Positions 10,972 through 30,517 of a stretch of 46,676 nucleotides of DNA are shown piece after piece. This DNA is from a virus (Duplodnaviria; Heunggongvirae; Uroviricota; Caudoviricetes), in IMG/VR virus record IMGVR_UViG_3300024348_000013, positions 1-46,676 of that record. One strand, 5' to 3'. The translations under genes were made by a program, and so were the position numbers. How positions within the stretch are numbered: the first letter of the stretch is position 1; every line of letters begins with the position of its first letter. The notes beneath the pieces are model-generated. The model was not told the origin of the DNA. It saw only the letters and a program-made list of their open reading frames with translations, and did no database searches.

Positions 10972-11003
10972 TATAAATATAAAAAAATTACTTTAGCAAC
11001 CAA
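10972..11003 (-). promoter_or_regulatory. ATATTTATA motif overlapping a TTG-N19-TATATTTA host-type promoter candidate
   Basis: TTG at 11003-11001, a 19-nt spacer, TATATTTA at 10981-10974 and ATATTTATA at 10980-10972; 17 nt before the ATG at 10954. Confidence 0.5.
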
Positions 11004-13962: not shown

Positions 13963-16900
13963 TTAAGCGTAAAAAATACCAAGTATCTGATTAAGTGGTG
14001 CAAACGTACCTGTAAGTTTGTATGTTTTTCCACCATAAAAGAATACTAATCCTTCACTCGCTACAATTCTATCTACTCCCCCTAATTTGTTTAATCTTGC
14101 TAATTCTGCTTTTAATTTTGCTATTTGAGCAGGATTTCCTGCTGTTCTAACTTGGCTTGCAACTGATTTAAATTTATCCTTCATAGCTCTAATTGCTTTA
14201 TCAGGATGTACAGTCAATACTGAGCTAACAAAATCTAAAATATCTGCACCAACTCCTAAGAATATTTCTTCGAATGGTCTGATGTTATCCTTTTGTTGTT
14301 TTGCTACATTAACTTTATCATTATTAATTGCCCAAGCTAAAATCTTTTCGTTTGTAATATTATTCTTATCCAATCTAAATGCCTTTTCACCAAATGCCCA
14401 TCTTCTAACCAATGCATCTCTTGTCAATTTATTAACTTTTTCGGGTGATTTTGTATCTATAAAGTTTTCCCACCATGCTTGATGATAATTTGCTACATTA
14501 TCACTATCTGATAAACCAAATTGGGATTGTAATTTAGATAATTTACCTAAATACTTTCCTTGCTTACCACTTAGATTTTCATTCTTTGGTATTGATGTTA
14601 CAGGTGGTCCTTGTATTGTATATTTAGATTGTACATCTGCATTAACTTGCTTAATCATTCCTGCTAATTGAGATGCTGCTCCCTGATTTGCTCCAATAGC
14701 AGAACCTTTCTCATCATAACAAGTTGTATTATGAAATACTAAGATTGCCTGTCCATAAGGAATAACATTAACCGATGTTGGCCATATTACTTCCAAATTC
14801 ATAAAACACCTACCATCATTAAAGATTTTCTTTCTTTGAGCTTCTGATAATGAACTGATTGCTGCGGTTAAATCTCTCATTGCGAAATTATATGCATCAG
14901 TCAATGCACCTCTACCGCCAAACTTAGATGCTACATCAGCTATTCCCATTGCACCTGCTCCGGCATTTTGTAAATGTGATTTGTTACGAGCTGCAATCAA
15001 TCTACCATTTTTCCAGCTGATTGCTAATGCTTGTCCATCGGTTTTTTCTCTTACTACTCCCAAATCACCATTAAGTGCTTTTGAAATAATATTCTTTAAA
15101 TCACCAAAAGTTAAATCCATATCATCAAATGGATGGCTCATATGACCATATGCCCCACCTTCTAATAATAATGATTCGTTAAGAGTTTTTTTTTCTACAA
15201 ACTCATGTAATCCTAATTTATCAGTATAATCTGATATATCGTTATAACCACTATATCTTAATTCTCTTGCAACATCACTTTTAGTTGCTCGGGGGTTAGC
15301 ACACACCGCTGCTCCTATTTTCTTTCTACCAAATGAACCTGCTTTATCCCATAATTTCATAATTGCTTTGTAATGCCAATCGGTAGTACTTACTTCATCG
15401 GTTGCTTTAAAAATGTTTTGCCCCTTATCTCCCAATCTAAATGTTGTTGCCTTTTTACCATTAATTGTTGGCATACCGTGGTCATCTTTTCCGAAATCTT
15501 TAACAACAACTTTTTTGTTTTTAAATTTTCCCATCAAAACAGTATCACCCTTATCAACATCTATATTGATATCTTCGGTATAAATTTGTTTATTGATTCT
15601 ACCATATTCTCTCATCAATATTCCGGCTACCGCATGTGCATTGTTCTCAATCGGAGAACCATCATTGCCATCGGATTCATTTCTCACCAATCCCATCTCA
15701 TCTTGCTTTCTATGAACCATTTCATGTGCAATAGTTCTAAGAATATCCGCACCTAATCTTCCTTCGATTGCTACATATATTTCTTTGGTTTGTGGATTAT
15801 AACCACCTAATGAAGTTTTTGTTTCTGCAAATTCTCCACCACCAATTAAATTTACTTTTGGTTGTTCTTGTAATTTTAATCGGCCGCTTGCCCATTCTAC
15901 AAAGTGTTGAATAGATTTTTGTTTTGTTTCTGAAATATTTTCTTTTAATAAATCTTCTAAATCTTTCTTAGGTTTATTTTCACTATATCTTTTTACAGAA
16001 TCTAACATTTGCTGATTAGACATCTGATATGTAGACATCTTTTCTAATGTTTTAGATACGACTTTATCTACAAATTTTGCACCACTATCATCTCCTTCAC
16101 CTTCTAACAAACTTCCGACTACGCCAACTGCCGCGGTTGCTCCGGCGGCATGTACTCCACCCAATCCCATTGTTTCAAAAAATGAGTGTTTGACTAAATC
16201 TTTACCGAGATGTGCAGCAAAGCCAGTTGCTCCGTGATGCGCTAATCCCGTAACACCATGAACTGCTCCATGCCCAATTGCCGAACCTATTCCGTGTGCA
16301 CCCGCTGCTTTAGCAGCTGCGATACCACCACCAATTGCTCCACCAATTGCAGCTGCCCCAATCATAGATGCTCCCAATAACAATACATCTTTACCTAAGT
16401 GTTTAAGTGCATGCTTTTGTTTGTGGTGTTCATCTTTACTATATTCGTATTTACCCGTTTCTTCGTTTTTCTTATAACCCAATTTACCACCAGAATTATA
16501 TAATGATTTAACACTATCAACACTTCCGGTAACCATTTCTTTCTTTTCGTGTGCCCAATGTTTTGCACCATCCCATAAACCCTCTCCTTTTTTCTTAAAC
16601 CAATCACCAATGTTTTTGGCAGTTGATTTTCTACTCTCAGAATTAGGGTCATTCATTTCTTTTGCAGCCGTTTGGTCTTCTTTTGATAACTTAGCAAGTT
16701 CTTTATCCAATTGTTGCTTTGTTTCTTTTTCCCTTGGGTCTACCGGTGGTTTCTCAGCTGATGATTTTAGTTCAGCTCCACTTAATTTATTTGGTGGCGG
16801 TGCCTCTGCCGTAGGTGCTTCTCCACCTTTAGCTTTATCAGCTTTACCCTGTGTAGTTTGGTCTTTCTTAACAGGTTGACCAGGTTCAGCCGGCTTTGCA

Positions 16901-17862
16901 GATTGTGCTGCTGCTTTTCCAGGTTCTTCTTTTTTCTTTGGTTCGTTTGCGGGAGCATCTTCTGGTCCTGCTATTTTTGAAGCTTGAATATGTGCCGGAT
17001 GTTCTTTTGGTAATCTTAACGCATCTCTTGCTTTTATTTTCTTTTGTTCACCTTTACTATTTGTATAACTAATATCTACATCCAATGCTTTATTTTCAGC
17101 TTCTCCAAAATATTCATTAACAAAATCTTTAAATATTTCTTCAGCTGCTACTCTACCTAATAATTCGGATATTGGGTCATATGGTGCTTTGTTTCCGTCA
17201 AATGCTTTCTTCTCATCTTCTGGATGTTCGGTTTCATGTCTTGTAGGATGTGGCTCAGGTATTAATTCAGATGATGGTTCTGTATTTACTGATTCATTTA
17301 ATTTACCTGTTATCATTTTGTATATATCTTTATCAAATTTTGGATATGCTTTTAAGAAAAACTTCTTTGATTTTTCTGCATCATCACTACCCAACCCATT
17401 ACGAACATCAGTTCCACTTATTGGATTTTGTTCAGCTGGTACTGGGTACACATAACCAATTTCATCATAACCATATCCCATTTTATTGTTGTATGGTTTA
17501 AAATATTTACCATGCAATCTATTTGCATCCTTTTCACCTACTGCTGCAATATATTGAGTAGTTTTACCATCGAATTTTGAAAGTATTTCTTTTGGAGCAT
17601 ATGGATTTCCAACTCTAAGAAATTTAGATGATGGAATACCAAACATTGTAGTTGCTATTTTTTTCTTCTCGTTAAAATTAAATGGAGATTTATCAGAACT
17701 TGTATCGTTTGATGTACCTATATAAACATTGTTAGCACCAAATTTTGATACTAACTTTGAATAAGTAGCATAGTGTCCTTTGTGGAATGGTTGGAAACGG
17801 CCGGAGTATACTACTACCAGCTTTGTTACCTTAGGCTTATCTGCTTCGTTTATTGAATTCAT
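13963..17862 (-). CDS. 1299-aa multidomain protein: HxGH nucleotidyltransferase, low-complexity linker, Gly-rich hydrophobic segment, HExxH module and KxDG ligase-like domain
   Basis: GRFQPFHKGH (residues 21-30), AHEMVH (HEMVH at about 713-717) and EKTDG (K about 940). Modules are bounded by LNE/LLE/ISE/LLLE. Confidence 0.8.
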   Translation of the reverse strand: MNSINEADKPKVTKLVVVYSGRFQPFHKGHYATYSKLVSKFGANNVYIGTSNDTSSDKSPFNFNEKKKIATTMFGIPSSKFLRVGNPYAPKEILSKFDGKTTQYIAAVGEKDANRLHGKYFKPYNNKMGYGYDEIGYVYPVPAEQNPISGTDVRNGLGSDDAEKSKKFFLKAYPKFDKDIYKMITGKLNESVNTEPSSELIPEPHPTRHETEHPEDEKKAFDGNKAPYDPISELLGRVAAEEIFKDFVNEYFGEAENKALDVDISYTNSKGEQKKIKARDALRLPKEHPAHIQASKIAGPEDAPANEPKKKEEPGKAAAQSAKPAEPGQPVKKDQTTQGKADKAKGGEAPTAEAPPPNKLSGAELKSSAEKPPVDPREKETKQQLDKELAKLSKEDQTAAKEMNDPNSESRKSTAKNIGDWFKKKGEGLWDGAKHWAHEKKEMVTGSVDSVKSLYNSGGKLGYKKNEETGKYEYSKDEHHKQKHALKHLGKDVLLLGASMIGAAAIGGAIGGGIAAAKAAGAHGIGSAIGHGAVHGVTGLAHHGATGFAAHLGKDLVKHSFFETMGLGGVHAAGATAAVGVVGSLLEGEGDDSGAKFVDKVVSKTLEKMSTYQMSNQQMLDSVKRYSENKPKKDLEDLLKENISETKQKSIQHFVEWASGRLKLQEQPKVNLIGGGEFAETKTSLGGYNPQTKEIYVAIEGRLGADILRTIAHEMVHRKQDEMGLVRNESDGNDGSPIENNAHAVAGILMREYGRINKQIYTEDINIDVDKGDTVLMGKFKNKKVVVKDFGKDDHGMPTINGKKATTFRLGDKGQNIFKATDEVSTTDWHYKAIMKLWDKAGSFGRKKIGAAVCANPRATKSDVARELRYSGYNDISDYTDKLGLHEFVEKKTLNESLLLEGGAYGHMSHPFDDMDLTFGDLKNIISKALNGDLGVVREKTDGQALAISWKNGRLIAARNKSHLQNAGAGAMGIADVASKFGGRGALTDAYNFAMRDLTAAISSLSEAQRKKIFNDGRCFMNLEVIWPTSVNVIPYGQAILVFHNTTCYDEKGSAIGANQGAASQLAGMIKQVNADVQSKYTIQGPPVTSIPKNENLSGKQGKYLGKLSKLQSQFGLSDSDNVANYHQAWWENFIDTKSPEKVNKLTRDALVRRWAFGEKAFRLDKNNITNEKILAWAINNDKVNVAKQQKDNIRPFEEIFLGVGADILDFVSSVLTVHPDKAIRAMKDKFKSVASQVRTAGNPAQIAKLKAELARLNKLGGVDRIVASEGLVFFYGGKTYKLTGTFAPLNQILGIFYA

Positions 17863-17865
17863 ATG

Positions 17866-17874
17866 TATAAATAT
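17866..17874 (-). promoter_or_regulatory. ATATTTATA motif 3 nt before the ATG of the 1299-aa gene
   Basis: The minus strand reads GGG-ATATTTATA-CAT-ATG. Confidence 0.45.
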
Positions 17875-17889
17875 CCCAAATCTATTAGT

Positions 17890-18015
17890 TTAGAAATTTT
17901 TATAAACAAATGGGTCTCTTTTTTTCAATTCTTCTAGCTTTTTTTGAATTTTTTTCTTCATTTTATAAGCTTCATACCATTTTACAAAAAATGATATTAT
18001 AGGTAATTTCTTCAT
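17890..18015 (-). CDS. Small basic hypothetical protein (41 aa, ATG at 18015)
   Basis: MKKLPIISFFVKWYEAYKMKKKIQKKLEELKKRDPFVYKNF; the ATG is 4 nt after the upstream stop. Confidence 0.5.
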   Translation of the reverse strand: MKKLPIISFFVKWYEAYKMKKKIQKKLEELKKRDPFVYKNF

Positions 18016-18019
18016 AATT

Positions 18020-18562
18020 TTAATTTTTATAATATAATTCGGGCCATTCAACGATAATATGAACACCACCTTCATTATAAGCGTTAGTGTATATACTATA
18101 AATATCTTCTGAATTTTTTAATTCCCAAATTTTAGTGAATTGTAATATTGATTTAAATTCATTTGTATAATCATTTCTATGTTGAATACCTGGGTCTAAT
18201 GGGTCTTTACTACCAACCCCAACTCTAATGATAACATTAACCTTTTTACCGGTCATATTTTCAAATTTATCAGCGTGGTTGATTAGTTGATTTGCAGCTG
18301 ATACTAAAAAATCCCAACGAGGATAGAATGTAATAACTGATTTGCCAGTCATTGCCATACCTAAACTCATTCCCATTTGCGTTTCTTCCATAACAGGAAC
18401 TTCAATCATTTTTTCCTTTGGTACTTCCGTTAGGGTTGTACTCATTGGATTTCCTGCATAAACTATTTGTTGTCCTATAAAGATTGTATCTTCTTTTTCA
18501 GCAAGGAATGTCATTGCTTTAGTAAGTTCATCTTTATATGGAGAAAGTTGTGGAGTACTCAT
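18020..18562 (-). CDS. TPP-dependent enzyme beta subunit (E1-beta/transketolase pyrimidine-binding domain only)
   Basis: IEVPVMEETQMGMSLGMAMTG, QLINHADK and IIRVGVG..DPGIQH. At 180 aa it lacks the C-terminal domain of true E1-beta. Confidence 0.85.
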   Translation of the reverse strand: MSTPQLSPYKDELTKAMTFLAEKEDTIFIGQQIVYAGNPMSTTLTEVPKEKMIEVPVMEETQMGMSLGMAMTGKSVITFYPRWDFLVSAANQLINHADKFENMTGKKVNVIIRVGVGSKDPLDPGIQHRNDYTNEFKSILQFTKIWELKNSEDIYSIYTNAYNEGGVHIIVEWPELYYKN

Positions 18563-19554
18563 TATGGTCTTGAATTTGGATTATATAAATGTTTATTTGC
18601 TTTATACCACTCAATTGTTTCTTTTAGAGCTTCTTTTAAGTTTCTCTTTGGCTTCCATCCTAAATCATTAATCTTTTTTGAAGATAACAATCTAATAGGA
18701 ATCATTGGTGCTTTGTTATTCACATATTCAATTGGATTTGTATTACTATCCAATTCTTTAATAGTTGCAAGTGTTTCATTTACTGTAAACCCTTCTCCAT
18801 AACATACATTGAAAATATTGTATGTATCGTTATTCTCTGCTACAAAGATAAAACCATCTGCCATATCTTCAACATGCAATAAATCTCTTACTTCCGTACC
18901 ATCACCCCAAACTGGGATTGGATTTAAACCATCTGCTACTTTACGAATGTTTGCAGGAGTAACGTGACATTTTTCAAAATCAAATTTGTCATTAGGGCCG
19001 AATGCGTTTGAAGGTCTAACTATCAAACACTGCATTGGTTCGTGAATTTGATTAGAAAAGAAATCACATAACATCTCACCGTATCTTTTCATACCACCAA
19101 CTGCTTTATAAACTGGCAACATAGGTGTAGCGTGTACGTTCATATCTTCGGTACAAAATTCAGTTCCCATATCAGGATAAGTTGTATTAGATGATATGAA
19201 TAAAAACTTTCTAACTTTGTTTTTCCAACTTTGTTCCATTAAGTTTACATTCATCTCCACATTTGGAGTAACGTGTAATAATGGATTAAATTTAGTATCT
19301 AATGCATTTGATGTGTTTGCTGCACAATGAAATACAACATCTACATCTTTACTGATTAGTTCACAAAACTCTGCATTTTGTAAATCTCCTTTAATGTGTT
19401 CTACTTCCGATGTTCCTTCGAAATCGTTTCTCAAATCTCTACTGAATGATGTTGAACGGAGGTTTCGGTAACCTTTTTCGTGTAACAACCTTAATAAGTG
19501 TGAACCTATAAATCCACTTGCTCCTGTAACTAAAACCTTGTCTGTTTTTTTCAT
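18562..19554 (-). CDS. NAD-dependent sugar epimerase/reductase (extended SDR, GDP-L-fucose synthase-like)
   Basis: VLVTGASGFIG, FHCAA, ISS, YKAVGGMK, RPSNAFGP and VWGDGTEVRDLLHVEDMA. Confidence 0.9.
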   Translation of the reverse strand: MKKTDKVLVTGASGFIGSHLLRLLHEKGYRNLRSTSFSRDLRNDFEGTSEVEHIKGDLQNAEFCELISKDVDVVFHCAANTSNALDTKFNPLLHVTPNVEMNVNLMEQSWKNKVRKFLFISSNTTYPDMGTEFCTEDMNVHATPMLPVYKAVGGMKRYGEMLCDFFSNQIHEPMQCLIVRPSNAFGPNDKFDFEKCHVTPANIRKVADGLNPIPVWGDGTEVRDLLHVEDMADGFIFVAENNDTYNIFNVCYGEGFTVNETLATIKELDSNTNPIEYVNNKAPMIPIRLLSSKKINDLGWKPKRNLKEALKETIEWYKANKHLYNPNSRP

Positions 19555-19560
19555 AATAAT

Positions 19561-20598
19561 TTATTTAAATATTTCCCAATTAAGAACTACATCATTTACG
19601 AATTTTTTAGTTAATATGGCCGATGTGTGTCCATACCAACTTTTTTCTAAATATTTTTTTTGTTCATCTACATTCATAAAATTCATTTCTCTCCATAATA
19701 CATTTGGTAATTCACCATCTATATTAGAGTCAAAATTTCTAATACTCCATTCTATAATTCCACCATACAAATGTACGAAATTTTCTTCATAAAACCAAAA
19801 GTATTTTTTAAAATCTATTTTATCTGCATATGTTTTTACATATGAATTATTAAAATGTAAATCTTTTTGTTCCCATGTATCACAAATATCTTTATTCTCT
19901 ATAATACATTCATATACTGATTTTGATTTTGGTGTATGATAAAATGGTGGCGTTTTTCCTTCTTCTAAATATTTTTTACTAAAATTATTACTCATAGTAA
20001 AAAATTTAATATTATCAATACCATTTGATTTACAAAAATCTAATAACATACAAATATATTCAAACCACTCAAAATATCTTTCATCATATGATAGAAGATT
20101 TTGATGATAATTCCAAATAAATGTATCCAAATTTATAGGATTTTCTGTCATATTATATCCACCTGTCAAATGAAAATACCCTTGTTGATATGGTGATACT
20201 TTATCTTTACCATTTATTAAATAATCAACAGTATGCGGCCAGCTTTCAGTATTTTTTTGAAATCTTAAAGCTGGATTGGCTTTTTGATATTTTTCCGGAG
20301 TTATAAAAAAAGAATTTCTAGTTAAAGAAGTAAATTGTGCAATAACATTTATATCATTTGGATTAACGCCTTCTTTTAATAAATCTGAAATTTTGTATAT
20401 AATAGAACGAATTATTGTTTTATTATCATTTGTAATAGTTCCATAATTATGAAGTATATGCGTTTCCTTTAAAGATTGTTGTAGCCAATGTGCCCAAGTC
20501 CAATCTTCAATTCTATCATTTAACCAATATCGTTCATCTTGTAAATTACAACGATAATTATTTGTAAATGAACAACCGGATACTACAATGTGCTTCAT
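19561..20598 (-). CDS. SGNH-hydrolase-like hypothetical protein
   Basis: Block I-like VVSGCSFT and late GH motif; shares GGIIEW with 33588..34427. Confidence 0.5.
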   Translation of the reverse strand: MKHIVVSGCSFTNNYRCNLQDERYWLNDRIEDWTWAHWLQQSLKETHILHNYGTITNDNKTIIRSIIYKISDLLKEGVNPNDINVIAQFTSLTRNSFFITPEKYQKANPALRFQKNTESWPHTVDYLINGKDKVSPYQQGYFHLTGGYNMTENPINLDTFIWNYHQNLLSYDERYFEWFEYICMLLDFCKSNGIDNIKFFTMSNNFSKKYLEEGKTPPFYHTPKSKSVYECIIENKDICDTWEQKDLHFNNSYVKTYADKIDFKKYFWFYEENFVHLYGGIIEWSIRNFDSNIDGELPNVLWREMNFMNVDEQKKYLEKSWYGHTSAILTKKFVNDVVLNWEIFK

Positions 20599-21596
20599 TA
20601 TAATCTGCTTTTATATTCTAAAATTGATTTAGTCAATCCTTCTTTTAAAGTTGTTTGTGGTAAGATACCATATTTCTTTTGTCTATCTGCGCCTAAACAT
20701 CTAATTGGGTCACCATTTGTTTTTGTAGAATCCCATGTAATAACTTTTGTTTTACCTGTGATTTCTTTATAACATTCAACAATGGTTTCAATTGTTTCTT
20801 TAATAGTTACTGCTTCTGCACAACCAAAGTTAATAATATCACTAACTTCTTTTTTAACTACATCGATTGCAGCCTGTGCAACATCATCACCAAATACAAA
20901 GTCTCTTTTAGATGAACCATCTCCCCAACAAACCATTTCCTCACCTTCTACATTAAATAATTTCCAAATATTAGAACTAATAACAGTTGCATCTTGTGCA
21001 AAGTTATCATTCGTACCATATATGTTTGAAGGTCTAATAACCGTATAGTTTTTCCAACCATATTGAACTCTTAACGAATCCAATGTTAATTCACCCATTC
21101 TTTTTGTCCAACCTGGATGCCAATCTAAACGAGATGGTGTAGACGCCCAAGTTTCTTCTTGATTCCAAGTATCACCCTCATTCATTACATCTGCCGGCTT
21201 ATAAACACCAACCGATGAAAGGTATACAAACCAATCTACTTTTGCATCAAATGATGCTTTAATCATATTGGTATTAAACATCAGCATTGGGAATAGGTAA
21301 TCAGCAGGTTGTGTCGATGACCTTGCTGGCGAGCCTTTAACACCTGCGATATGTAGAACTATATCTATTTTTTCATCTGCAAATAAACTTTCACAATGAG
21401 AAAGATATGTTAGGTCTGTTTTTACCAATTCCAATCTATCTTGATATTGTCCTTTTAGAAAGTTTAAGTTTTCACTAAATCTAAGGTCTACTGCGTATAC
21501 TTTTGCAGCACCTTCTTCTAAACATTTTTTAACTGCTGGTAATCCTACCAAACCATTTGCTCCGGTTATAATAACCTTTTTTCCTTTAAATTCCAT
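20598..21596 (-). CDS. NAD-dependent sugar epimerase/reductase (extended SDR, GDP-fucose synthase/GME-like)
   Basis: IITGANGLVG, LHIAG, YLSSVGVY, PGWTKRMGE, RPSNIYG and WGDGSSKRDFVFGDDVA. Confidence 0.9.
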   Translation of the reverse strand: MEFKGKKVIITGANGLVGLPAVKKCLEEGAAKVYAVDLRFSENLNFLKGQYQDRLELVKTDLTYLSHCESLFADEKIDIVLHIAGVKGSPARSSTQPADYLFPMLMFNTNMIKASFDAKVDWFVYLSSVGVYKPADVMNEGDTWNQEETWASTPSRLDWHPGWTKRMGELTLDSLRVQYGWKNYTVIRPSNIYGTNDNFAQDATVISSNIWKLFNVEGEEMVCWGDGSSKRDFVFGDDVAQAAIDVVKKEVSDIINFGCAEAVTIKETIETIVECYKEITGKTKVITWDSTKTNGDPIRCLGADRQKKYGILPQTTLKEGLTKSILEYKSRL

Positions 21597-21597
21597 T

Positions 21598-23010
21598 TTA
21601 TATTAGTTGTTTGTTTTCGTAATCAAATTTTATTTGTCCAAATATTTCATCAAAACATTCATATTTTTCAAACGTATATAAATGCTTTTGATTGTATAAT
21701 AAAATATCAACAATTGAATAATACCAATTATGCATTTCTTCTATTGTCATATTTTTTAATTTAAGTAATTCTTTTTCTAAAAGTAATATTCTTTTTTTAG
21801 GGTCTCTCTCTAAGTCATAACTTTCATCTATAAATGGTTCAAACGTTTTAAATCCTAATTTTCTTAATTCTGCCAATGTTAAATAATCTCCAAATACTAT
21901 AAATGGTTGTAAATTTGAAACTGGTTTAAATATTTTTTCTGAAAGAAATACATTTGGTCCAAAGAATGTTTCCGTTACTAAATGAAAATATGAATCCGAA
22001 TACCAACTTTTTTTATTATTTTTAGAACCGAAATTTGATTTTTGCTCAATTGTTAATGTATTGGTATCTTCTTCGTATGGTAATAATTCTTCTAATTCAG
22101 ATGTATATTTATTGATATTTTCATTGGTATCATTGTATATTTGTTGTATTGCACTTTTTAATCTATCTTTTGATGTTTTTTGAACAAATGTAAACATTCC
22201 TTCTTTTAACAAATTATATTTTAATGCAAAATATCCCATAATAGCTCTTTGTGATTTTTCCATAGTTCTATTTGGACAAATGAATTTATTTTTTCTTAAT
22301 ATATTTGGATTTAAATCTTCTTCCTTAAATAATTCACACATATATCCTAAATTACCTACACATGGAAATTCTTTTATTTGGTCTACATATCCTCTAATAA
22401 ATAAATGTCCATTATATATTTTAACTTTACTTTTAGGATGTTTTTCATAATATTCTACAAATTTACTCCCACCTAAAAATATAATATTTGAACCATTTAT
22501 TCCTAATTCATTTAATTGTATTTCAAATTTTCTAATATTATTTTCATCATATAATGGGTCATGTGTTATATTAATTAATATTTTAACTTTGCCTGATTTT
22601 AAATGATTTATTATATCAACAGGAATTATATCTTTAAAATAATATTCATATGATGTATCTCCTATTTTAAATTTATTTAAATCATTTAACCCACCCAAAG
22701 TTGCTTTAATTTCAATTGGGTAAATATAAGTAAATTCATCATCTAATATTTGATTTGATGAAATTATATTTGTTCTAAAATTTCTGCCAAAATAGTTTAT
22801 TAATTCTGAATGTCCAAACTTTATAACTTTTTCTTCCGCATTATTTTGCAATGCTTCAAACCAATCAATTTTTAAATTTCGTTTTAGTGTATCTTGTATA
22901 AACTCACATATAGCAGGATGTGTTCCATTTCCATGCGGCTTACGTTCACCGCCCTCAATGTACCAATCCGTATATATTAATTTAAAATACGACCCATTTA
23001 CCGCTTCCAT
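21598..23010 (-). CDS. Putative glycosyltransferase (GT-B; C-terminus resembles GT10/fucosyltransferase)
   Basis: SYFHLVTET...FLSEKIFKPV...PFIVFG resembles the GT10 donor-binding motif ENS...YITEK...PIVxG. Confidence 0.5.
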   Translation of the reverse strand: MEAVNGSYFKLIYTDWYIEGGERKPHGNGTHPAICEFIQDTLKRNLKIDWFEALQNNAEEKVIKFGHSELINYFGRNFRTNIISSNQILDDEFTYIYPIEIKATLGGLNDLNKFKIGDTSYEYYFKDIIPVDIINHLKSGKVKILINITHDPLYDENNIRKFEIQLNELGINGSNIIFLGGSKFVEYYEKHPKSKVKIYNGHLFIRGYVDQIKEFPCVGNLGYMCELFKEEDLNPNILRKNKFICPNRTMEKSQRAIMGYFALKYNLLKEGMFTFVQKTSKDRLKSAIQQIYNDTNENINKYTSELEELLPYEEDTNTLTIEQKSNFGSKNNKKSWYSDSYFHLVTETFFGPNVFLSEKIFKPVSNLQPFIVFGDYLTLAELRKLGFKTFEPFIDESYDLERDPKKRILLLEKELLKLKNMTIEEMHNWYYSIVDILLYNQKHLYTFEKYECFDEIFGQIKFDYENKQLI

Positions 23011-23611
23011 AATGAGGATATTTTGATTTATAAGTGTAATGAATTACATCCGATGGAACTTCTCTTTTTGTATTCCAAGTAGCTTCCGTTGGTGTGTAGG
23101 TTGATACCGCATTATCTTCAACTACAAATACAATTGGTAAGTCAAAGTTTCTTGCATACTTGTGAACTTCGTAAAATATACCACTTTCAAATGACATATC
23201 ACCTACGAACACAAATACTTTTTCATCACCACCTTTTTGTTTGATTCCCATTGCAACACCCAATGCTACCGAAAGAGTACCACCTACAATTGCAGATGAA
23301 TAAAACTTTTCATCAATATTACAAAGAGTAATTGATTTTCCTTTAAGAATTTCTTCTTCAATCCAATCAATAGGAACTTCTTTTAATAATGCGTGATAGT
23401 GAGAACGCCATGTACTAAACACCCAATCCGAAGTTTTAATTCGTTTGAATATTTCAATTAGTTGTTCTTCGTTTCCGTTTGATAAATGAATTGGGCCTCG
23501 TATCTTTCCATCTTCCCAATGTTTTACTATTAAATTTTCAAAATCAATTAATGATTCTGCTGTGTGTTGAATATCTCTTAATATTGGATATTGTTCTAAA
23601 TTTTGTATCAT
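22982..23611 (-). CDS. TPP-dependent enzyme alpha subunit (E1-alpha-like; ATG at 23611 preferred)
   Basis: GPIHLSNGNEE, STWRSHYHAL and TPP-binding GDMSFESG...EDN; ATGA overlap with the upstream stop. Confidence 0.88.
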   Translation of the reverse strand: MIQNLEQYPILRDIQHTAESLIDFENLIVKHWEDGKIRGPIHLSNGNEEQLIEIFKRIKTSDWVFSTWRSHYHALLKEVPIDWIEEEILKGKSITLCNIDEKFYSSAIVGGTLSVALGVAMGIKQKGGDEKVFVFVGDMSFESGIFYEVHKYARNFDLPIVFVVEDNAVSTYTPTEATWNTKREVPSDVIHYTYKSKYPHYGSGKWVVF

Positions 23612-24144
23612 CTGTCTCTTTTTTGTAATATAGGGTTTGTTGTTGGCCATTCCATTTGATATTCCGGGTCATTCCATTTAACTACTCCTTGCTCATCCGC
23701 ATCCACATAACCATCTTTGTAAAATAAGTTATAATGAAACATACAATCAGTTAATGCGTAATGTCCATTTGCAAAACCTGGTGGAACTAATACTTGATTT
23801 CTATCCTTTTCCGTTATCATAAATGATTCCCATTCTCCAAAGGTAGGACTATTTTTTCGCATATCCAAGACAATTAGGTAAATATCACCAACTGCCGCTT
23901 GAACTAATTTCCAAGTCTTATTATCATAATGCAATCCTCTTAATACACCTTTATATGATTTTGAGAATCTACCATGTATTTCATTTCCCTCACCAATTTT
24001 TGTCATAACAGGATGTTCACCTGAATGAAAGGTTGTAAATATTTCACCTCTATATTCCCTATAAATTGATGGAGTATATGTTGGTACTTCATAACCGAAT
24101 TTTTTCGATGGAGTAATTTGAAACTCATCCCATTTATTACTCAT
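23608..24144 (-). CDS. rmlC: NDP-4-keto-6-deoxyhexose 3,5-epimerase (RmlC-like cupin)
   Basis: YRGEIF, S...GVLRGLHY, IYLIVLDMRKNSPTFGEW, QVLVPPGFANGH and GVVKWNDP. Confidence 0.9.
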   Translation of the reverse strand: MSNKWDEFQITPSKKFGYEVPTYTPSIYREYRGEIFTTFHSGEHPVMTKIGEGNEIHGRFSKSYKGVLRGLHYDNKTWKLVQAAVGDIYLIVLDMRKNSPTFGEWESFMITEKDRNQVLVPPGFANGHYALTDCMFHYNLFYKDGYVDADEQGVVKWNDPEYQMEWPTTNPILQKRDR

Positions 24145-24145
24145 A

Positions 24146-25111
24146 CTATGTTTGATTTGCGTATCCTAAAGGAAAACCATTTCTAAATTCTGCTCCCATT
24201 TTTGGAACTATCATTTGATATCCTTGAATTAATTGTTTAATACCTTTATCCAAATCCCACTCTGGCATCCAACCAGTCGCTTCTATTTTAGCGTTTGATA
24301 CGATATAATCTCTTTTATCAGGGTCCTCATAAAAGTCGTTGTATGATACCGCAAAATCCTTTACATGAGATTGTATCTTTTCTAACAATCCTTGCTTTGA
24401 AAGATTTGCAGAGCTTAATCCTACATTGAAAATTTCACCTTTATATGTTTCATAATTTTCTAACATAAAAAGAAATGCTGATGCAACATCTTCAACGTGA
24501 ATAAAATTTCTTTTAAAATTCTTTTCAAATACTACTATGTATTTATCCGTAATTGCTTTATAAGTAAAATCATTTACCAATAAATCCGTTCTCATTCTCG
24601 GTGAAACTCCAAATACAGTTGCTAATCTAAATGTAATTGCTGATGTATTTGCTCTAAGAAAGTTTTCAGAATCACATTTAGTTTGCCCATAAACTGATAT
24701 TGGTGCAATTGGTGATTCTTCAGTACATTCTCTTTGGCCTGTGCCTAATCCATATCCACTATTTGTATTTGGATATAAAATCTTTTTATCTTTTGCAAAT
24801 TTTACAATATTGAATATTTGGTCAAAATTAATTTCTCTTGCTAACTTTGGGTCGGATGCGCAAGCAGGAAATCCTACGATTGCAGCTAATGGAATAATAA
24901 CATCTGCTTCTTTACATAATGTTTGTAGTAATTCAACATTACGAACATCTCCGTAAATAAATTTAAATTTAGGATTTGATGTATATGATAATAGCGATGT
25001 TTGATTAAATAATAATTTATCTAATACAACAACTTCATGTCCAGCATTTAACATTTTACCAACAATGACTGAACCCAAATAACCTGCACCACCTGTGATG
25101 AATATTTTCAT
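24146..25111 (-). CDS. NAD-dependent sugar epimerase/dehydratase (extended SDR)
   Basis: IFITGGAGYLG, LAAIVG, YGQTK (YxxxK), FRLATVFG and RNFIHVEDVA. Confidence 0.92.
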   Translation of the reverse strand: MKIFITGGAGYLGSVIVGKMLNAGHEVVVLDKLLFNQTSLLSYTSNPKFKFIYGDVRNVELLQTLCKEADVIIPLAAIVGFPACASDPKLAREINFDQIFNIVKFAKDKKILYPNTNSGYGLGTGQRECTEESPIAPISVYGQTKCDSENFLRANTSAITFRLATVFGVSPRMRTDLLVNDFTYKAITDKYIVVFEKNFKRNFIHVEDVASAFLFMLENYETYKGEIFNVGLSSANLSKQGLLEKIQSHVKDFAVSYNDFYEDPDKRDYIVSNAKIEATGWMPEWDLDKGIKQLIQGYQMIVPKMGAEFRNGFPLGYANQT

Positions 25112-25118
25112 AACTTCT

Positions 25119-25868
25119 TTAAAAATAAATATTATGTTCTATATAAAATTGAGGATAATTTCCACTAAAAGATATATCCCATACTTTGTATCTATTAAAA
25201 TGGTCAAAATCACACATAAAAGCAAAGTTTTTTCTTAATGGATAATCATAATTTAATTTTCTTAAATCATTGAATACAATATGGCTGTATTTATCTTTGT
25301 AATTATCTACAATATCTTGTACTTCTAATAATTCTAATCTTTTATTTAAAACAAAGCATAATTTATATTCAAACTTACCATATCCTCTATGTTCTTCTGG
25401 TCCAATCATGCTACCACATCCAAACCAATAAAAAGCGGCTTCATATGATTGCCTTTCATCGTTTTCAAAATAAATTGTTCCTACTAATTTGTTATTAAAA
25501 TAGCAATCTATTTTTCTCTCAATAAAATTATCACAAATCATATTATATTCATTGAATTCATTCAATTCAATATCTTTTAATCCATAAAATATTTGCTTAA
25601 CTCTTTGCTCACCATTTTCATCTTTAAACCAATATGTAAATACAACATTTACATTACCAAAATCATCTTTAAAAGCGGAAATGCCAGAATGCATTCCGTT
25701 TCTAGCAAACATATATGCTTGCCTATTTTCTAATGTTTCAGGAAATAATTTTGCAGTTAAATGTATTGTAAAATCTTCTTCCATCCATTTATCAATTCTA
25801 TCTGATACTGCATATCTGCTTTCTGGTAAAATGAAAAATATATTTTCTTTATTTACTACTAAACTCAT
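25119..25868 (-). CDS. Stand-alone LamG/ConA-like lectin-fold protein
   Basis: FTIHL...GMHSGIS...YFNNKLVG...FGCG...CDFD....VWDIS mirrors the inserts in the neighbouring GT7 genes. Confidence 0.5.
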   Translation of the reverse strand: MSLVVNKENIFFILPESRYAVSDRIDKWMEEDFTIHLTAKLFPETLENRQAYMFARNGMHSGISAFKDDFGNVNVVFTYWFKDENGEQRVKQIFYGLKDIELNEFNEYNMICDNFIERKIDCYFNNKLVGTIYFENDERQSYEAAFYWFGCGSMIGPEEHRGYGKFEYKLCFVLNKRLELLEVQDIVDNYKDKYSHIVFNDLRKLNYDYPLRKNFAFMCDFDHFNRYKVWDISFSGNYPQFYIEHNIYF

Positions 25869-25872
25869 AAAC

Positions 25873-27288
25873 TTAAACTTTTATTGTTTTACAAAAATTA
25901 TAAAATTCCTCTAATTCTGGAAATGTTTTTACAAAATCAGTTCCTCTACGAATATCGTGATTAGAAAAATATTGGTAAAAACTATATCTATTTTTCATTT
26001 GTTGAGATGCATCTTGTGGTGCATTCATCCAATCATATATTCGTTTTACCTTTTGAACCTCAACATCACTATATCCAATGTGTTCAGGACTAAATGATGG
26101 TGCCGCATAATATGTAATCAACTTAGATTGGTCTAAAATATATTTAGCAAAATCATATGGAAGAACTTGTACAGTTTGGTGTAATGGATATCTTAAATAA
26201 GATGAATCCAAAAACACTGCTGAGTTCCAATATCTATCGGTTGAAGCGTAAGCATCTTTTAATCCATATACATTATGAATTAATGTTTCATAATTAAATA
26301 CACTCAATGCGTTATATGTAGACATAAACGTAATGATTACTCTCGGGCATTGAGTAAGAATCATATTTACATGGTCCCAAAATCTATTAAATTCCAAACC
26401 TGTTCTAATATATTCAGCTTGTTCACCCCAAGTATCTACTGATGTGAAAATTACAATTTCTTTTACTCTACCCTCATCTTCAATTCTTTTGATTTTTTCA
26501 ATTAATTTTTCAACCAATGAAGTTGGTACGCCTAAATTAGAATTAATTGCTAATTTTAATTCGGTGTTAGGGTTTTCTTGTTCTAAGATATAATCCAATA
26601 CTTTCCAAGTATCTTTTGCCATCAAAGGTTCGCCTCCAGTAATTCTGAAAGTATGTAAGTCTCTATATAAATCTGGCCACCATTTCCAAAATGCTTCTAC
26701 ATATGGATTATGTTCTCTAGCTGGAATTGGAAATTTATCTTCTAATTTTAACCAATCAGGTGAATTAAAATTATCTAATGTAGGATAAGCTCCATATTGT
26801 TCAATTTCTTCTACCCACTTAGAACTAAATGCCGGTCCACAATATGAACATTTAAAGTTACAAGCATTACTAAATGCAACCTCAACATATTTTGGATTAT
26901 AATCATCTCTCCAATCAGATTCTTTGATTTCTTTTAAAAATGGATAAGACCAGCTTTCTCCTGATTTAAAAATTCTATCACTAAATCTATCAGAGTTATC
27001 CTCTACTCCCCAACAATAATCACATTCCGAAGGTCTACTACCTTGCAACATTTCTTTTCTACGAAGTTTTTTATACCTCGTATTATGAAGAGCTGATGGA
27101 TTTCGTGCAATTTCTTGTTCAGAAATTTTATGAGTACGAGGGTGGTGACAAGAGTGGTTGTGCCCATTTTGTAACTGCAATGTTACTTGAGTCCATTTTG
27201 CCGCACACATTCCTGGTCCAACTTCGTTCAATTCTTCTTTTACTCTCAAATATATCGGATTCTCCGAATACGTTTTTTCGTCTGCCAT
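25873..27288 (-). CDS. Radical SAM enzyme with extra Cys clusters (twitch/SPASM-like)
   Basis: CNFKCSYC (CxxxCxxC) and ITGGEP; N-terminal CAAKW...HSCHH and CDYCWGVE. Confidence 0.93.
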   Translation of the reverse strand: MADEKTYSENPIYLRVKEELNEVGPGMCAAKWTQVTLQLQNGHNHSCHHPRTHKISEQEIARNPSALHNTRYKKLRRKEMLQGSRPSECDYCWGVEDNSDRFSDRIFKSGESWSYPFLKEIKESDWRDDYNPKYVEVAFSNACNFKCSYCGPAFSSKWVEEIEQYGAYPTLDNFNSPDWLKLEDKFPIPAREHNPYVEAFWKWWPDLYRDLHTFRITGGEPLMAKDTWKVLDYILEQENPNTELKLAINSNLGVPTSLVEKLIEKIKRIEDEGRVKEIVIFTSVDTWGEQAEYIRTGLEFNRFWDHVNMILTQCPRVIITFMSTYNALSVFNYETLIHNVYGLKDAYASTDRYWNSAVFLDSSYLRYPLHQTVQVLPYDFAKYILDQSKLITYYAAPSFSPEHIGYSDVEVQKVKRIYDWMNAPQDASQQMKNRYSFYQYFSNHDIRRGTDFVKTFPELEEFYNFCKTIKV

Positions 27289-27298
27289 ATTTTATTTA

Positions 27299-28762
27299 TT
27301 AACAATGAACATTAATCATTTTGTGTTTTTCAAATATTGTTGTTGTACTAATATATGTGTAATCCATATTATTAATACCATCTTTTTTATAATCAATCAA
27401 ACCTTGCTGCATTTGTAGAACATACCTTCTTTCGTTTCGTGCAGTAGTTGCTCCCTTTGCCCATTGTTCAATACCATTTACATTTATTAATCCTTCAGTT
27501 TGATGTGGTAAACATAAAAACTTACCATCTTTTCTATGTGGTAAAATAACATCAGGTATTATAATTTCTCTATCTTCAAATGTAACATTATTTATAAAAC
27601 CATCATTTAATTCTGATTGGTCTATTAAATATCCATTCTCAATATCGTCAAAATTATAATGTAAAGCCAATCCGTTTGTCGAATATTGCTTATGTAATAG
27701 TTCAACTTCAGCTCCTTCTAATGCCCTATTCCATATTTTTATATCTGCTAATTCACCTTTAAAAAATGCATTTGGTTCAAATCCAGCTACCGATGGGGTG
27801 TGTCCTATATAAAATGGTTCACTACCATATCTTTTTAAATCATGCTCATATCTTATTGGAGATTGTGTTCCCATGCCATTTCTGGCATTACTTTCTCTAC
27901 CATTGATATACAAATGCATCTTTTTTCTTTTTGAATCTACTACCATAGTAATCCAACTCCATTCATTTTCGTATCGCTTAACCCATTGGTATATTGGTTC
28001 TCTATGTGAATTCCATAACATACCTGTATATGCTCTACTATTATTAAAAGATATTCCCCAATCAAATCCTGGCTTTCGTATGATTGGATATTCTACAAAT
28101 TTTCTATCAGAATCTCCTATCAACCATATTGGTGCTTTTTCTATTTGCTGGTCAGCTTTTACTAAAACCGATACAGTATGACAAGCTCCAACTGATAATC
28201 TTAATTTATCATCTTTTTGATTTGGAATTTTAATACATGAATTAGTACCATTGAATATTCCTACTCTTTTTGTTTTTCCATAAGATAAATTTTGCCTATC
28301 AACCATTCCTTCTTGAATACATCTCCAAAACAAATCATCATCTTCCATGCCCCAATCCCAATAATCATTTGAGTAACCATTGGTAGCATCTACTTGCTCT
28401 TTAGTAAAGACAACTGCTCCGCCAAAGTATTCTTGATATTTTAAGTTATAATCGGATTGAGATATTCTAACTGCTATATGTTGTGGATTTTCTTCAGGAT
28501 ATGAATAATCGCAACTATCATCTTCTGGAACCATATCAATATCATGCCAAACTATATAATCACATCCATCTTCAAATGCATGTTTAGCAGCGATATTTTT
28601 CATCAACCCCCTATTAAATAATTTTTCATCACATTGGTGCGCAAGATACACAGTATGTTCTATTCCTCTATTAGTTAAAAATTCACTAATATGCGGAACA
28701 AATTTATTCATATGTTCTTCTCTATTCCTATATGGTACACAAACCCCTAACTTATGAGCCAT
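27299..28762 (-). CDS. GT7 (beta-1,4-galactosyltransferase family) glycosyltransferase with inserted LamG domain, paralog 1
   Basis: VPYRNR, FNRGLMKN, HDID, YFGG and NGYSNDYWDWGMEDDDL, then a ~240-aa beta-sandwich, then a GT7-like tail. Confidence 0.9.
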   Translation of the reverse strand: MAHKLGVCVPYRNREEHMNKFVPHISEFLTNRGIEHTVYLAHQCDEKLFNRGLMKNIAAKHAFEDGCDYIVWHDIDMVPEDDSCDYSYPEENPQHIAVRISQSDYNLKYQEYFGGAVVFTKEQVDATNGYSNDYWDWGMEDDDLFWRCIQEGMVDRQNLSYGKTKRVGIFNGTNSCIKIPNQKDDKLRLSVGACHTVSVLVKADQQIEKAPIWLIGDSDRKFVEYPIIRKPGFDWGISFNNSRAYTGMLWNSHREPIYQWVKRYENEWSWITMVVDSKRKKMHLYINGRESNARNGMGTQSPIRYEHDLKRYGSEPFYIGHTPSVAGFEPNAFFKGELADIKIWNRALEGAEVELLHKQYSTNGLALHYNFDDIENGYLIDQSELNDGFINNVTFEDREIIIPDVILPHRKDGKFLCLPHQTEGLINVNGIEQWAKGATTARNERRYVLQMQQGLIDYKKDGINNMDYTYISTTTIFEKHKMINVHC

Positions 28763-28773
28763 TCTATAACTTT

Positions 28774-30204: not shown

Positions 30205-30212
30205 AGTTTAAA

Positions 30213-30512
30213 TTAAACTGTTTCTATATCTTTTTTAGGTCTTACCTTTCTTGGTGGAGCTGGTTGCTCTGTTTGGGTTTCAGCTACATCGGTAGATGCA
30301 CTACTTCCGTTTTTCAAAATATTATGAAAATCGTATAAATACCATGCAATTCTTTCACCCCATTCTTTTTTATCAATTTCTTCAAACCATACAGTCAATG
30401 CATCTACTGAATTTGCGATTTTTTCTAATGCTTTTACTTTTCTAGTTTCAAGAACGATTGCTTCCAAATCTTGTGATGGAGTTGTTGTTTCTTCTAATTT
30501 TAATTTTGCCAT
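30213..30512 (-). CDS. Hypothetical protein
   Basis: 99-aa ORF packed between GT7 paralogs. Confidence 0.6.
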   Translation of the reverse strand: MAKLKLEETTTPSQDLEAIVLETRKVKALEKIANSVDALTVWFEEIDKKEWGERIAWYLYDFHNILKNGSSASTDVAETQTEQPAPPRKVRPKKDIETV

Positions 30513-30517
30513 TTTTG

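What the first reader, a model, noticed from the sequence alone, without database searches (positions are those of the whole stretch)
18020..25111. Minimal split TPP enzyme among sugar epimerases: possible branched-chain sugar pathway in a phage
Seen: an E1-alpha-like gene (~209 aa) and a truncated E1-beta-like gene (180 aa) bracket two SDRs, next to RmlC and a third SDR, with no E2/E3 genes in the window. Known: TPP enzymes in sugar clusters (YerE for yersiniose, AviB1/B2 for eurekanate) transfer a pyruvate-derived C2 unit onto NDP-4-keto-6-deoxysugars. Inference: the phage makes a C-branched or higher-carbon NDP-sugar, rather than carrying a pyruvate dehydrogenase metabolic gene. The initial nucleotidyltransferase and 4,6-dehydratase may come from the host or lie outside the window.
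Basis: partly seen in the sequence, partly recalled or inferred. Interest (0 to 1): 0.75.

Follow-up and report, generated by a model that had tools for sequence, protein, structure and literature searches.

The report
Mini thiamine enzyme in phage heptose pathway
An uncultured T4-like water phage encodes the two halves of a stripped-down thiamine-dependent enzyme 4.4 kb apart, inside a gene block that turns a seven-carbon sugar nucleotide into its reactive 4-keto form. It most likely adds a short carbon branch to that sugar and is not a pyruvate dehydrogenase.

Summary
A 209-aa E1-alpha-like PP half (22982-23611) and a 180-aa E1-beta-like Pyr half (18020-18562) bracket four genes: a GT-like gene, an Fcl-like SDR, a DUF6071/SGNH-like gene and a second Fcl-like SDR.

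The upstream SDR matches PDB 6VO6 at E 4e-104; I recall 6VO6 as C. jejuni Cj1427. The "RmlC" matches GDP-4-keto-heptose epimerases best. So the pathway tailors GDP-heptose, not a 6-deoxyhexose, and needs no 4,6-dehydratase.

Both halves match one fused ~400-aa phage protein (PHROG 34187, function unknown). The family has about 150 clusters at 50% identity and forms a clade apart from full-length E1 alpha. It lacks the E1-beta C-domain, and complete relatives of the phage have no E2, lipoyl or E3 gene.

Across 126 loci a dehydrogenase almost always accompanies the enzyme (Cj1427-like or Zn-ADH), while GmhA rarely does. My best reading (about 0.5) is a ThDP carboligase that adds a 2-oxoacid-derived C2 unit to the keto-heptose. 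Chain building at another step, or a transketolase-like role, is not excluded.

This scan reached the same reading earlier on other DNA. No biochemistry exists for the family.

The parts
22982..23611 (-). PP (pyrophosphate-binding) half of the minimal ThDP enzyme, 209 aa; the ORF is open up to 23650, giving 222 aa
   Evidence: Pfam E1_dh E 5.7e-16, with weaker TPP_enzyme_C and DXP_synthase_N hits. It is 39% identical to the N-half of S-SM2_198. Family-invariant residues are H55, D75, H84, G150 and N180; D151 is in >=90% of sequences. The C-terminal motif YxYxRxYPHxGxGxxVxF is also conserved. PHROG 34187 positions 2-197.
18020..18562 (-). Pyr (pyrimidine-binding) half of the minimal ThDP enzyme, 180 aa, with no E1-beta C-terminal domain
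   Evidence: Pfam Transket_pyr E 4.7e-6. It is 34% identical to the C-half of S-SM2_198. Invariant residues are E54, E59 (aligned to the cofactor-activating Glu of E1 beta), R82, Q127 and H128. In the model of a fused homologue this part matches E1-beta residues 1-173 with Z 22.6.
24146..25111 (-). [quoted passage not shown]
   Evidence: PDB 6VO6/6VO8: E 3.7e-104 over residues 2-307; the next hit is at 3e-21. Present in 61 of 61 relatives' loci.
23608..24144 (-). RmlC-like cupin, GDP-4-keto-heptose 3- or 3,5-epimerase type
   Evidence: Best PDB hits are C. jejuni heptose epimerases 7AN4, 8DCL, 7M14 and 8DCO (E about 1e-36), against 1e-23 for dTDP RmlC. Its stop codon overlaps the ATG of the 209-aa PP gene.
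21598..23010 (-). 470-aa protein, probably a glycosyltransferase (GT10-like is a lead only)
   Evidence: No Pfam, NCBIfam or PHROG hit. The protein atlas gives GT10-bearing clusters at 0.79, which is only a lead.
20598..21596 (-). Fcl-like extended SDR (GDP-sugar C4 reductase type)
   Evidence: NCBIfam GDP-L-fucose synthase E 2.9e-35. Best PDB hits are GDP-fucose synthases.
19561..20598 (-). 345-aa DUF6071/SGNH-like protein
   Evidence: No Pfam hit. The atlas gives DUF6071 clusters at 0.96, some carrying GDSL lipase. It is 24% identical to the window ORF at 33588-34427.
18562..19554 (-). Fcl-like extended SDR (GDP-sugar C4 reductase type)
   Evidence: NCBIfam GDP-L-fucose synthase E 7.4e-41. 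PDB hits include 7ANH and 7M13. A homologue is fused to the PP half in P0121.
25873..27288 (-). Radical SAM enzyme with an N-terminal twitch domain, upstream in the same gene run
   Evidence: NCBIfam NF033640 E 8.5e-104. It co-occurs in 53 of 61 relatives' loci.
25119..25868 (-). 249-aa protein of unknown function between the radical SAM gene and the C4-dehydrogenase
   Evidence: No family hit. Conserved in many relatives' loci.

Best explanation
The two small proteins assemble into an E2-independent, E1-derived ThDP enzyme that contains only the PP and Pyr domains. It works inside a GDP-heptose tailoring pathway.

Shown by homology:
- The Cj1430-type cupin would epimerise the 4-keto sugar.
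- Two Fcl-like SDRs would reduce part of the pool to ordinary heptose isomers.

Inferred:
- The ThDP enzyme decarboxylates a 2-oxoacid, most simply pyruvate, to an acyl-anion equivalent.
- It adds this to the carbonyl of the keto-heptose nucleotide, giving a C-acetyl (later hydroxyethyl) branched heptose.
- Neighbouring glycosyltransferases place that sugar on a phage or host glycan.

In this phage lineage a cassette of reductase, transferase and esterase-like genes has been inserted between the two subunit genes.
For: - ThDP machinery is intact and conserved: G150 and N180 are invariant and D151 is in >=90% of sequences in PP; E59 and H128 are invariant in Pyr.
- E1 ancestry: Pfam E1_dh scores best. 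The Pyr part matches the E1-beta N-domain with Z 22.6, rmsd 2.1 A over 167 aa.
- It is not a dehydrogenase complex. The beta C-domain is absent, and three complete relatives have no E2, lipoyl or E3 gene. One of them is 77-81% nt identical here.
- The family forms its own clade (SH-aLRT 100).
- The keto-sugar supply is adjacent: a 6VO6-type SDR (E 4e-104) and a Cj1430-type epimerase.
- A dehydrogenase partner is near-universal. It is Cj1427-like in 61/61 and 19/22 split loci and Zn-ADH in 43/43 fused loci.
- The core module of dehydrogenase, epimerase, PP and Pyr exists without any Fcl-like reductase in L029, L034 and L079. Something else must consume the 4-keto group there.
- Reductases of three superfamilies sit beside PP or are fused to it: the SDR-PP fusion P0121, an aldo-keto reductase in L086 and L083, and Zn-ADH. 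This fits reduction of a newly made ketone, as Pau7 does in paulomycin biosynthesis (PMC4753412).
- Published precedent exists for E1-type pairs and for YerE installing a pyruvate-derived C2 branch on 4-keto sugars (PMC4425429, PMC4753412).
Against: - No biochemistry exists for any member of the family. The donor, the acceptor and even the direction of the reaction are inferred.
- In the fused lineage the invariant neighbours are Zn-ADH and an HldA-like heptose kinase, with no Cj1427-like enzyme (43/43).
- In a SAR11 single-cell genome the pair sits between GmhA and HddA. That would also fit an early step at the sugar-phosphate stage.
- In bacterial cassettes a DegT aminotransferase (18/22) could consume the 4-keto group itself.
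- The known E1-type branching pairs are full-length proteins. I could not place AviB1/B2 in the tree because no sequence was available to me.
- That 6VO6 is Cj1427 rests on my memory of the deposition, not on a tool result.
Confidence: 0.5

Rival explanations
1. Carbon-chain building or side-chain extension rather than C4 branching. The enzyme ligates a C2 unit to an aldehyde or ketone elsewhere: on a sugar phosphate before the anomeric kinase, or on the exocyclic end of the heptose. This would give a higher-carbon (octose or nonose) or omega-deoxy sugar. The logic is that of the cluster-encoded transaldolase LmbR in lincosamide octose synthesis, which I cite from my own knowledge.
For: - Kinase adjacency in two lineages with unrelated kinases: HldA-like PfkB in 43/43 fused loci and GHMP/HddA-like in 13/22 bacterial loci.
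- The gene order GmhA-PP-Pyr-HddA in SAR11.
- Trios of Zn-ADH, ThDP enzyme and kinase with no nucleotidyltransferase or SDR nearby.
Against: - GmhA is co-located in only 3/22 bacterial loci and in none of 104 phage loci. It was not found in three complete relatives.
- In the window's lineage the pair is always with nucleotide-sugar tailoring enzymes, while the kinase lies about 130 kb away.
- A pyruvate-type donor would give a 1-deoxy-ketose, which GmhA could not isomerise.
Confidence: 0.22
2. A minimal transketolase that supplies sedoheptulose 7-phosphate for heptose synthesis during infection.
For: - The predicted PP-Pyr arrangement superposes on transketolase residues 16-473 (Z about 21, 349 aa).
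- The family is always found in heptose pathways.
Against: - Sequence affinity is to E1, not transketolase. There is no Transketolase_N hit, and the NCBIfam transketolase score is 23 bits against a cut-off of 488.
- Sedoheptulose 7-P is a central metabolite in hosts.
- GmhA is rarely linked.
- This role would not explain the near-universal dehydrogenase or reductase partner.
Confidence: 0.1
3. A plain 2-oxoacid decarboxylase tied to the redox cycle of the Cj1427-type dehydrogenase, which in C. jejuni needs alpha-ketoglutarate as oxidant (PMC10680097). Alternatively, a decarboxylase acting on a sugar-borne alpha-keto acid.
For: - The pair co-occurs with the Cj1427-like enzyme in 80 of 83 split loci.
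- E1-like residues that normally hold a 2-oxoacid (the WRSH motif at 81-84) are conserved.
Against: - No chemical need is known. Decarboxylating the co-substrate would starve the dehydrogenase.
- The fused lineage lacks a Cj1427-like enzyme altogether.
Confidence: 0.06
4. An auxiliary metabolic pyruvate or acetoin dehydrogenase E1 that uses host E2 and E3.
For: Automatic names in public sources say 'pyruvate dehydrogenase E1 alpha'.
Against: - The beta C-terminal domain, which docks E2, is missing.
- Alpha is 209 aa, against more than 320 aa in E1 alpha.
- The family forms a separate clade.
- It sits in glycan clusters in all 126 loci examined.
- No E2, E3 or lipoyl gene is present in complete relatives.
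Confidence: 0.02

Closest known systems
E1 alpha/beta-type sugar-branching pairs of actinomycete antibiotic pathways (AviB1/AviB2 of avilamycin; Pau11/Pau12 of paulomycin)
   Same: A two-subunit ThDP enzyme of E1 descent, encoded in a sugar cluster without E2 or E3, next to enzymes that make a 4-keto sugar. It has a ketoreductase partner, as Pau7 (an aldo-keto reductase) serves in paulomycin. The proposed donor is pyruvate (PMC4425429, PMC4753412).
   Different: The known pairs are full-length (Pau11 325 aa, Pau12 345 aa). Here alpha is 209 aa and beta is 180 aa with no C-terminal domain. The acceptor here would be a GDP-heptose, not a dTDP-deoxyhexose or a glycoside. The genes are 4.4 kb apart. 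Sequence relatedness to AviB1/B2 was not tested. Even for the known pairs the reaction rests on genetics, as far as the papers I read say.
YerE (yersiniose pathway, Yersinia pseudotuberculosis)
   Same: The only biochemically shown ThDP-dependent transfer of a pyruvate-derived C2 unit onto the C4 carbonyl of a nucleotide 4-keto sugar (cited in PMC4753412).
   Different: YerE is a single-chain flavoprotein of the acetolactate-synthase type (PMC4753412), with Pyr-FAD-PP domain order by my own knowledge. The phage enzyme is E1/transketolase-type with PP before Pyr, and has no hit to the TPP_enzyme_N or TPP_enzyme_M families.
Campylobacter jejuni GDP-heptose modification pathway (Cj1427 dehydrogenase, Cj1430 epimerase, Cj1428 reductase)
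   Same: The genes around the ThDP enzyme are homologues of all three steps (pathway in PMC10680097).
   Different: C. jejuni has no ThDP enzyme in this pathway; neither 'thiamine' nor 'transketolase' occurs in PMC10680097. The phage window lacks the GmhA, HddA, GmhB and HddC supply genes.
Fused 'transketolase central region-containing protein' of cyanophages S-SM2 and P-TIM68 (PHROG 34187)
   Same: The same family, at 34-44% identity to the two halves.
   Different: It is one chain of about 400 aa. It is flanked by a Zn-ADH and an HldA-like kinase in an ADP-heptose-type cluster instead of Cj1427- and Cj1430-type genes. Its function is unknown too.

Membership tests
2-oxoacid dehydrogenase E1 alpha/beta (PDH, BCKDH, acetoin DH) | PP domain with the ThDP-Mg motif GDG-X(24-27)-N | tested here: met
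   GDM(150-152)...EDN(178-180). G150 and N180 are invariant and D151 is in >=90% of 22 family members. Pfam E1_dh E 5.7e-16.
2-oxoacid dehydrogenase E1 alpha/beta (PDH, BCKDH, acetoin DH) | Pyr domain with the cofactor-activating glutamate | tested here: met
   E59 is invariant in 32 sequences and aligns to the E1-beta Glu. The fold matches the E1-beta N-domain with Z 22.6.
2-oxoacid dehydrogenase E1 alpha/beta (PDH, BCKDH, acetoin DH) | Beta-subunit C-terminal domain (Transketolase_C) that docks E2 | tested here: not met
   The protein ends at residue 180. Alignments stop at chain residue about 173 of 325-340. There is no Transketolase_C hit.
2-oxoacid dehydrogenase E1 alpha/beta (PDH, BCKDH, acetoin DH) | E2, lipoyl and E3 partners in the genome | tested here: not met
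   PF00198, PF00364 and PF07992 are absent from three complete relatives. The window's own genome is not held.
2-oxoacid dehydrogenase E1 alpha/beta (PDH, BCKDH, acetoin DH) | Placement among E1 alpha sequences in a tree | tested here: not met
   28 minimal PP sequences lie on one side of a branch with SH-aLRT 100, apart from 66 full-length E1 alpha proteins. This is the quick tree with a midpoint root.
E1-type sugar C-branching pairs (AviB1/B2, Pau11/12) | An E1-like pair inside a sugar cluster, with a 4-keto-sugar-forming enzyme and no E2 or E3 | tested here: met
E1-type sugar C-branching pairs (AviB1/B2, Pau11/12) | Full-length alpha and beta subunits (about 325 and 345 aa) | tested here: not met
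   209 and 180 aa here, against the Pau11/Pau12 sizes in PMC4425429.
E1-type sugar C-branching pairs (AviB1/B2, Pau11/12) | Sequence clustering with AviB1/B2 | not tested
   No AviB or Pau sequence could be fetched with these tools. The one full-length sugar-cluster E1 alpha at hand (L086) falls outside the minimal clade on a very long branch.
E1-type sugar C-branching pairs (AviB1/B2, Pau11/12) | Transfer of a pyruvate-derived C2 unit to a keto sugar | not testable with these tools
   This needs an enzyme assay.
Transketolase | A single chain of PP, Pyr and C-terminal domains, with a Transketolase_N signature | tested here: not met
   No Transketolase_N or Transketolase_C hit. NCBIfam transketolase scores 23 bits against a cut-off of 488. 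Only the PP-Pyr arrangement is alike (Z about 21).
YerE / acetolactate-synthase-type ThDP enzymes | Pyr-middle-PP domain order with TPP_enzyme_N and TPP_enzyme_M | tested here: not met
   Only a weak TPP_enzyme_C match to the PP motif. In fused members the order is PP then Pyr.
C. jejuni-type GDP-heptose tailoring pathway | Cj1427-type C4 dehydrogenase and Cj1430-type epimerase | tested here: met
   6VO6 at E 3.7e-104; 7AN4, 8DCL and 7M14 at E about 1e-36. That 6VO6 is Cj1427 is from my memory of the deposition.
C. jejuni-type GDP-heptose tailoring pathway | GDP-heptose supply genes (GmhA, HddA, GmhB, HddC) | tested here: inconclusive
   None is in the window. Complete relatives have a GHMP kinase and a small HIGH-motif nucleotidyltransferase elsewhere, but no detectable GmhA or NTP_transferase.

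The most novel reading that the evidence does not exclude
Abundant freshwater and marine phages, and SAR11-like bacteria, use the smallest known transketolase-superfamily enzyme: about 390 aa of PP plus Pyr, usually as two polypeptides. With it they make a C-branched heptose, a nine-carbon acetyl- or hydroxyethyl-branched sugar that I found described in no paper, and display it on virions or cells.
Probability: 0.4. Interest if true: 0.8.

Novelty: new variant of a known kind. Interest (0 to 1): 0.62.

Why it matters
- If the reading holds, it defines a new minimal architecture for ThDP carboligases. It would also define a new class of branched higher-carbon sugars in very abundant aquatic phages and bacteria.
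- It would give the widespread PHROG 34187 and the mis-named 'PDH E1 alpha' metagenome proteins a function. These are currently miscounted as central-metabolism auxiliary genes.
- The assay is simple to set up, because methods to make GDP-4-keto-heptose are published (PMC10680097).
- A small two-subunit enzyme that ligates onto ketones would also interest biocatalysis.

Tried and rejected
No whole genome is held for the window.
- Viral scans with P0124 (the B12-rSAM-PP fusion) and P0142 found nothing.
- Literature searches for the cyanophage 'transketolase central region' protein, and for thiamine plus heptose plus phage, found no study of the family.
- I could not confirm from a held paper that PDB 6VO6 is Cj1427. 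That link is from memory.
The careful tree search did not finish, so I report the quick tree.
PF00364 is absent from four related phage records.
- The PDH-type metabolic reading was rejected.
- The reading 'transketolase feeding GmhA' was considered seriously after the SAR11 and cyanophage contexts. I marked it down because GmhA is rarely linked while a dehydrogenase almost always is.
- Promoter and terminator scans of 17600-27500 gave nothing above shuffled expectation.

Full report
**What the window is.** All genes run on the minus strand. The window carries a T4-type portal (8206-9957), major capsid protein (652-2265) and large terminase (10988-12595). The nearest cultured relatives are Microcystis phage Mel-JY01 and Flavobacterium 'immuto' phages, at only about 48% portal identity. 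A glycan gene island of about 20 kb fills 18020-38097. G+C is 0.27-0.32 across the finding's stretch (17001-26000) and 0.22-0.39 across the window as a whole.

**The observation.**
- The E1-alpha-like gene is real (22982-23650). It hits Pfam E1_dh at E 5.7e-16, with weaker TPP_enzyme_C and DXP_synthase_N matches.
- Thousands of metagenomic homologues are 209 aa.
- The E1-beta-like gene (18020-18562, 180 aa) hits Transket_pyr and PDH E1 beta models over their first ~140 positions only.
- The layout needs correction. Between the two lie four genes, not two:
  - a 470-aa protein with a weak GT10 lead;
  - an Fcl-like SDR;
  - a 345-aa DUF6071/SGNH-like protein;
  - a second Fcl-like SDR.

**The two genes are halves of one enzyme.**
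- Each aligns to one half of the fused 402-aa 'transketolase central region' protein of cyanophage S-SM2, at 39% and 34% identity.
- Each also aligns to one half of PHROG 34187, whose function is unknown.
- An exhaustive search with a fused member found 151 clusters (50% identity) at E < 1e-30. Most are separate PP halves (about 200-215 aa) and Pyr halves (about 175-185 aa). A few are fused proteins of about 400 aa.
- Cofactor residues are conserved. In PP, G150 and N180 are invariant and D151 is in >=90% of sequences, together with H55, H84 and a C-terminal YxYxRxYPHxGxG motif. In Pyr, E59, R82, Q127 and H128 are invariant.
- An AlphaFold model of the fused member P0122 is confident (pLDDT 87.8).
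- The Pyr part of the model superposes on the N-domain of E1 beta (Z 22.6, rmsd 2.1 A, 167 aa, chain residues 1-173). The whole chain superposes on transketolase residues 16-473 (Z about 21).
- The enzyme therefore keeps only the two catalytic domains of the transketolase/E1 superfamily.

**It is not a pyruvate dehydrogenase.**
- The E2-docking C-domain of beta is absent.
- In a quick maximum-likelihood tree all 28 minimal PP sequences, split and fused, sit on one side of a long branch (SH-aLRT 100). They lie apart from 66 full-length genomic E1 alpha proteins.
- Three complete relatives of the phage lack E2 (PF00198), lipoyl (PF00364) and E3 (PF07992) genes. One of them is 77-81% nt identical over 17000-26000.

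**What the neighbours say.**
- The SDR at 24146-25111 matches PDB 6VO6/6VO8 at E 3.7e-104; the next hit is at 3e-21. [quoted passage not shown]
- The 'RmlC' matches the C. jejuni GDP-4-keto-heptose 3- and 3,5-epimerases at about 1e-36, against 1e-23 for dTDP RmlC.
- The two inserted SDRs are of the GDP-fucose-synthase type, as is Cj1428.
- This is the heptose pathway worked out by Raushel and colleagues (PMC10680097). There the 4-keto group comes from direct oxidation, so no 4,6-dehydratase is 'missing'.

**Comparative context.** I compared 126 loci with at least 5 kb on both sides, in three groups.

| Group | Loci | Linked genes |
|---|---|---|
| Window's phage lineage | 61 | Cj1427-like 61, epimerase 58, Fcl-like 55, twitch radical SAM 53 |
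| Bacterial-type (genomes and metagenomes, including SAR11 and SAR116 single-cell genomes and Verrucomicrobiota MAGs) | 22 | B12 radical SAM 20, Cj1427-like 19, DegT 18, GHMP/HddA-like kinase 13, GmhA 3 |
| Fused cyanophage-like lineage | 43 | Zn-ADH 43, HldA-like kinase 43, usually HldC- and HldD-like genes, no Cj1427-like gene |

- In the window's lineage a Pyr gene lies within 10 kb in 57 loci, but it is adjacent in only 3. The median gap is 5.8 kb.
- When the halves are adjacent (L029, L034, L079) there is no Fcl-like reductase at all. The Fcl/GT cassette therefore looks like an insertion between the subunit genes.
- In the bacterial-type group PP and Pyr are adjacent in 21 of 22 loci.
- The enzyme belongs to heptose pathways of both the GDP and the ADP type. 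Its one near-universal companion (123 of 126 loci) is a dehydrogenase.

**Fusions and other partners.**
- PP is fused to an Fcl-like SDR in P0121, and to a B12 radical SAM enzyme in P0123 and P0124.
- An aldo-keto reductase sits beside the pair in L086 and L083.

**Mechanism.** I favour, at about 0.5, a ThDP carboligase. It would add a 2-oxoacid-derived C2 unit to the carbonyl that the partner dehydrogenase creates on the heptose nucleotide, and the new ketone would then be reduced. Four points support this:
- the E1 ancestry, with 2-oxoacid-type residues;
- the dehydrogenase that is almost always present;
- the core modules that have no C4 reductase;
- the recurrent reductases of unrelated families.

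It follows the precedents of YerE and of AviB1/B2 and Pau11/12 with Pau7 (PMC4425429, PMC4753412).

**Rivals.**
- The main rival (about 0.2) is chain building or side-chain extension at another position or stage. Support comes from the tight linkage to anomeric kinases of two unrelated families and the SAR11 gene order GmhA-PP-Pyr-HddA.
- A plain transketolase role (about 0.1) is weakened because GmhA is almost never linked and was not found in complete relatives.
- None of these readings has been tested at the bench.

**Relation to earlier notes of this scan.** After I had reached the heptose reading, the scan's notes showed that other readers and follow-up agents had reported the same minimal pair in heptose cassettes on other DNA, with the same favoured reading. 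I do not count these as independent evidence.
- the census across three lineages;
- the Zn-ADH/kinase rule of the fused lineage;
- the negative lipoyl test;
- the tree;
- the view that the 4.4-kb separation is a cassette insertion.

Noticed in passing
L238:5183-11140 (IMG/VR contig of 193,754 bp): One phage carries two minimal ThDP pairs. The first runs Zn-ADH, Pyr (175 aa), PP (202 aa), a 308-aa ORF, then an HldA-like kinase, so the subunit order is reversed. It is followed by a second PP (198 aa) and Pyr (179 aa) pair. This suggests two paralogous enzymes with different jobs.
   Followed up: partly
L086:644-13154 (588-kb bacterial MAG contig): One sugar cluster holds both a full-length E1 alpha/beta pair (310 and 312 aa, with a Transketolase_C domain) and the minimal PP/Pyr pair. 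It also has an NDP-sugar C-methyltransferase, a Cj1427-like SDR, an RmlC-like gene, an aldo-keto reductase and a GHMP kinase.
   Followed up: partly
P0121, P0123, P0124 (metagenome proteins): Natural fusions of the PP half exist: with an Fcl-like SDR (519 aa) and with a B12-binding radical SAM enzyme (686 and 696 aa). Whether these are true fusions or gene-calling read-throughs was not checked on DNA.
   Followed up: no
L166:7022-14828 (G001, complete 238-kb relative; about 130 kb from its ThDP cluster): Relatives encode a GHMP kinase (HddA-like, 28-35% identity to bacterial ones), a HAD-like protein, an APS-kinase-like protein, a NifU-like protein and a 144-aa HIGH-motif nucleotidyltransferase. 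This may be the phage's own sugar-activation set. No GmhA was found.
   Followed up: partly
window 27299-31969: Three tandem GT7-type (beta-1,4-galactosyltransferase-like) genes, each with a Laminin_G_3 domain. They lie just upstream of the radical SAM gene. Another finding of this scan already covers them.
   Followed up: no
window 13963-17862: A 1299-aa protein with an N-terminal cytidylyltransferase-like domain lies directly downstream of the Pyr half. Its homologues follow the Pyr gene in many relatives.
   Followed up: no
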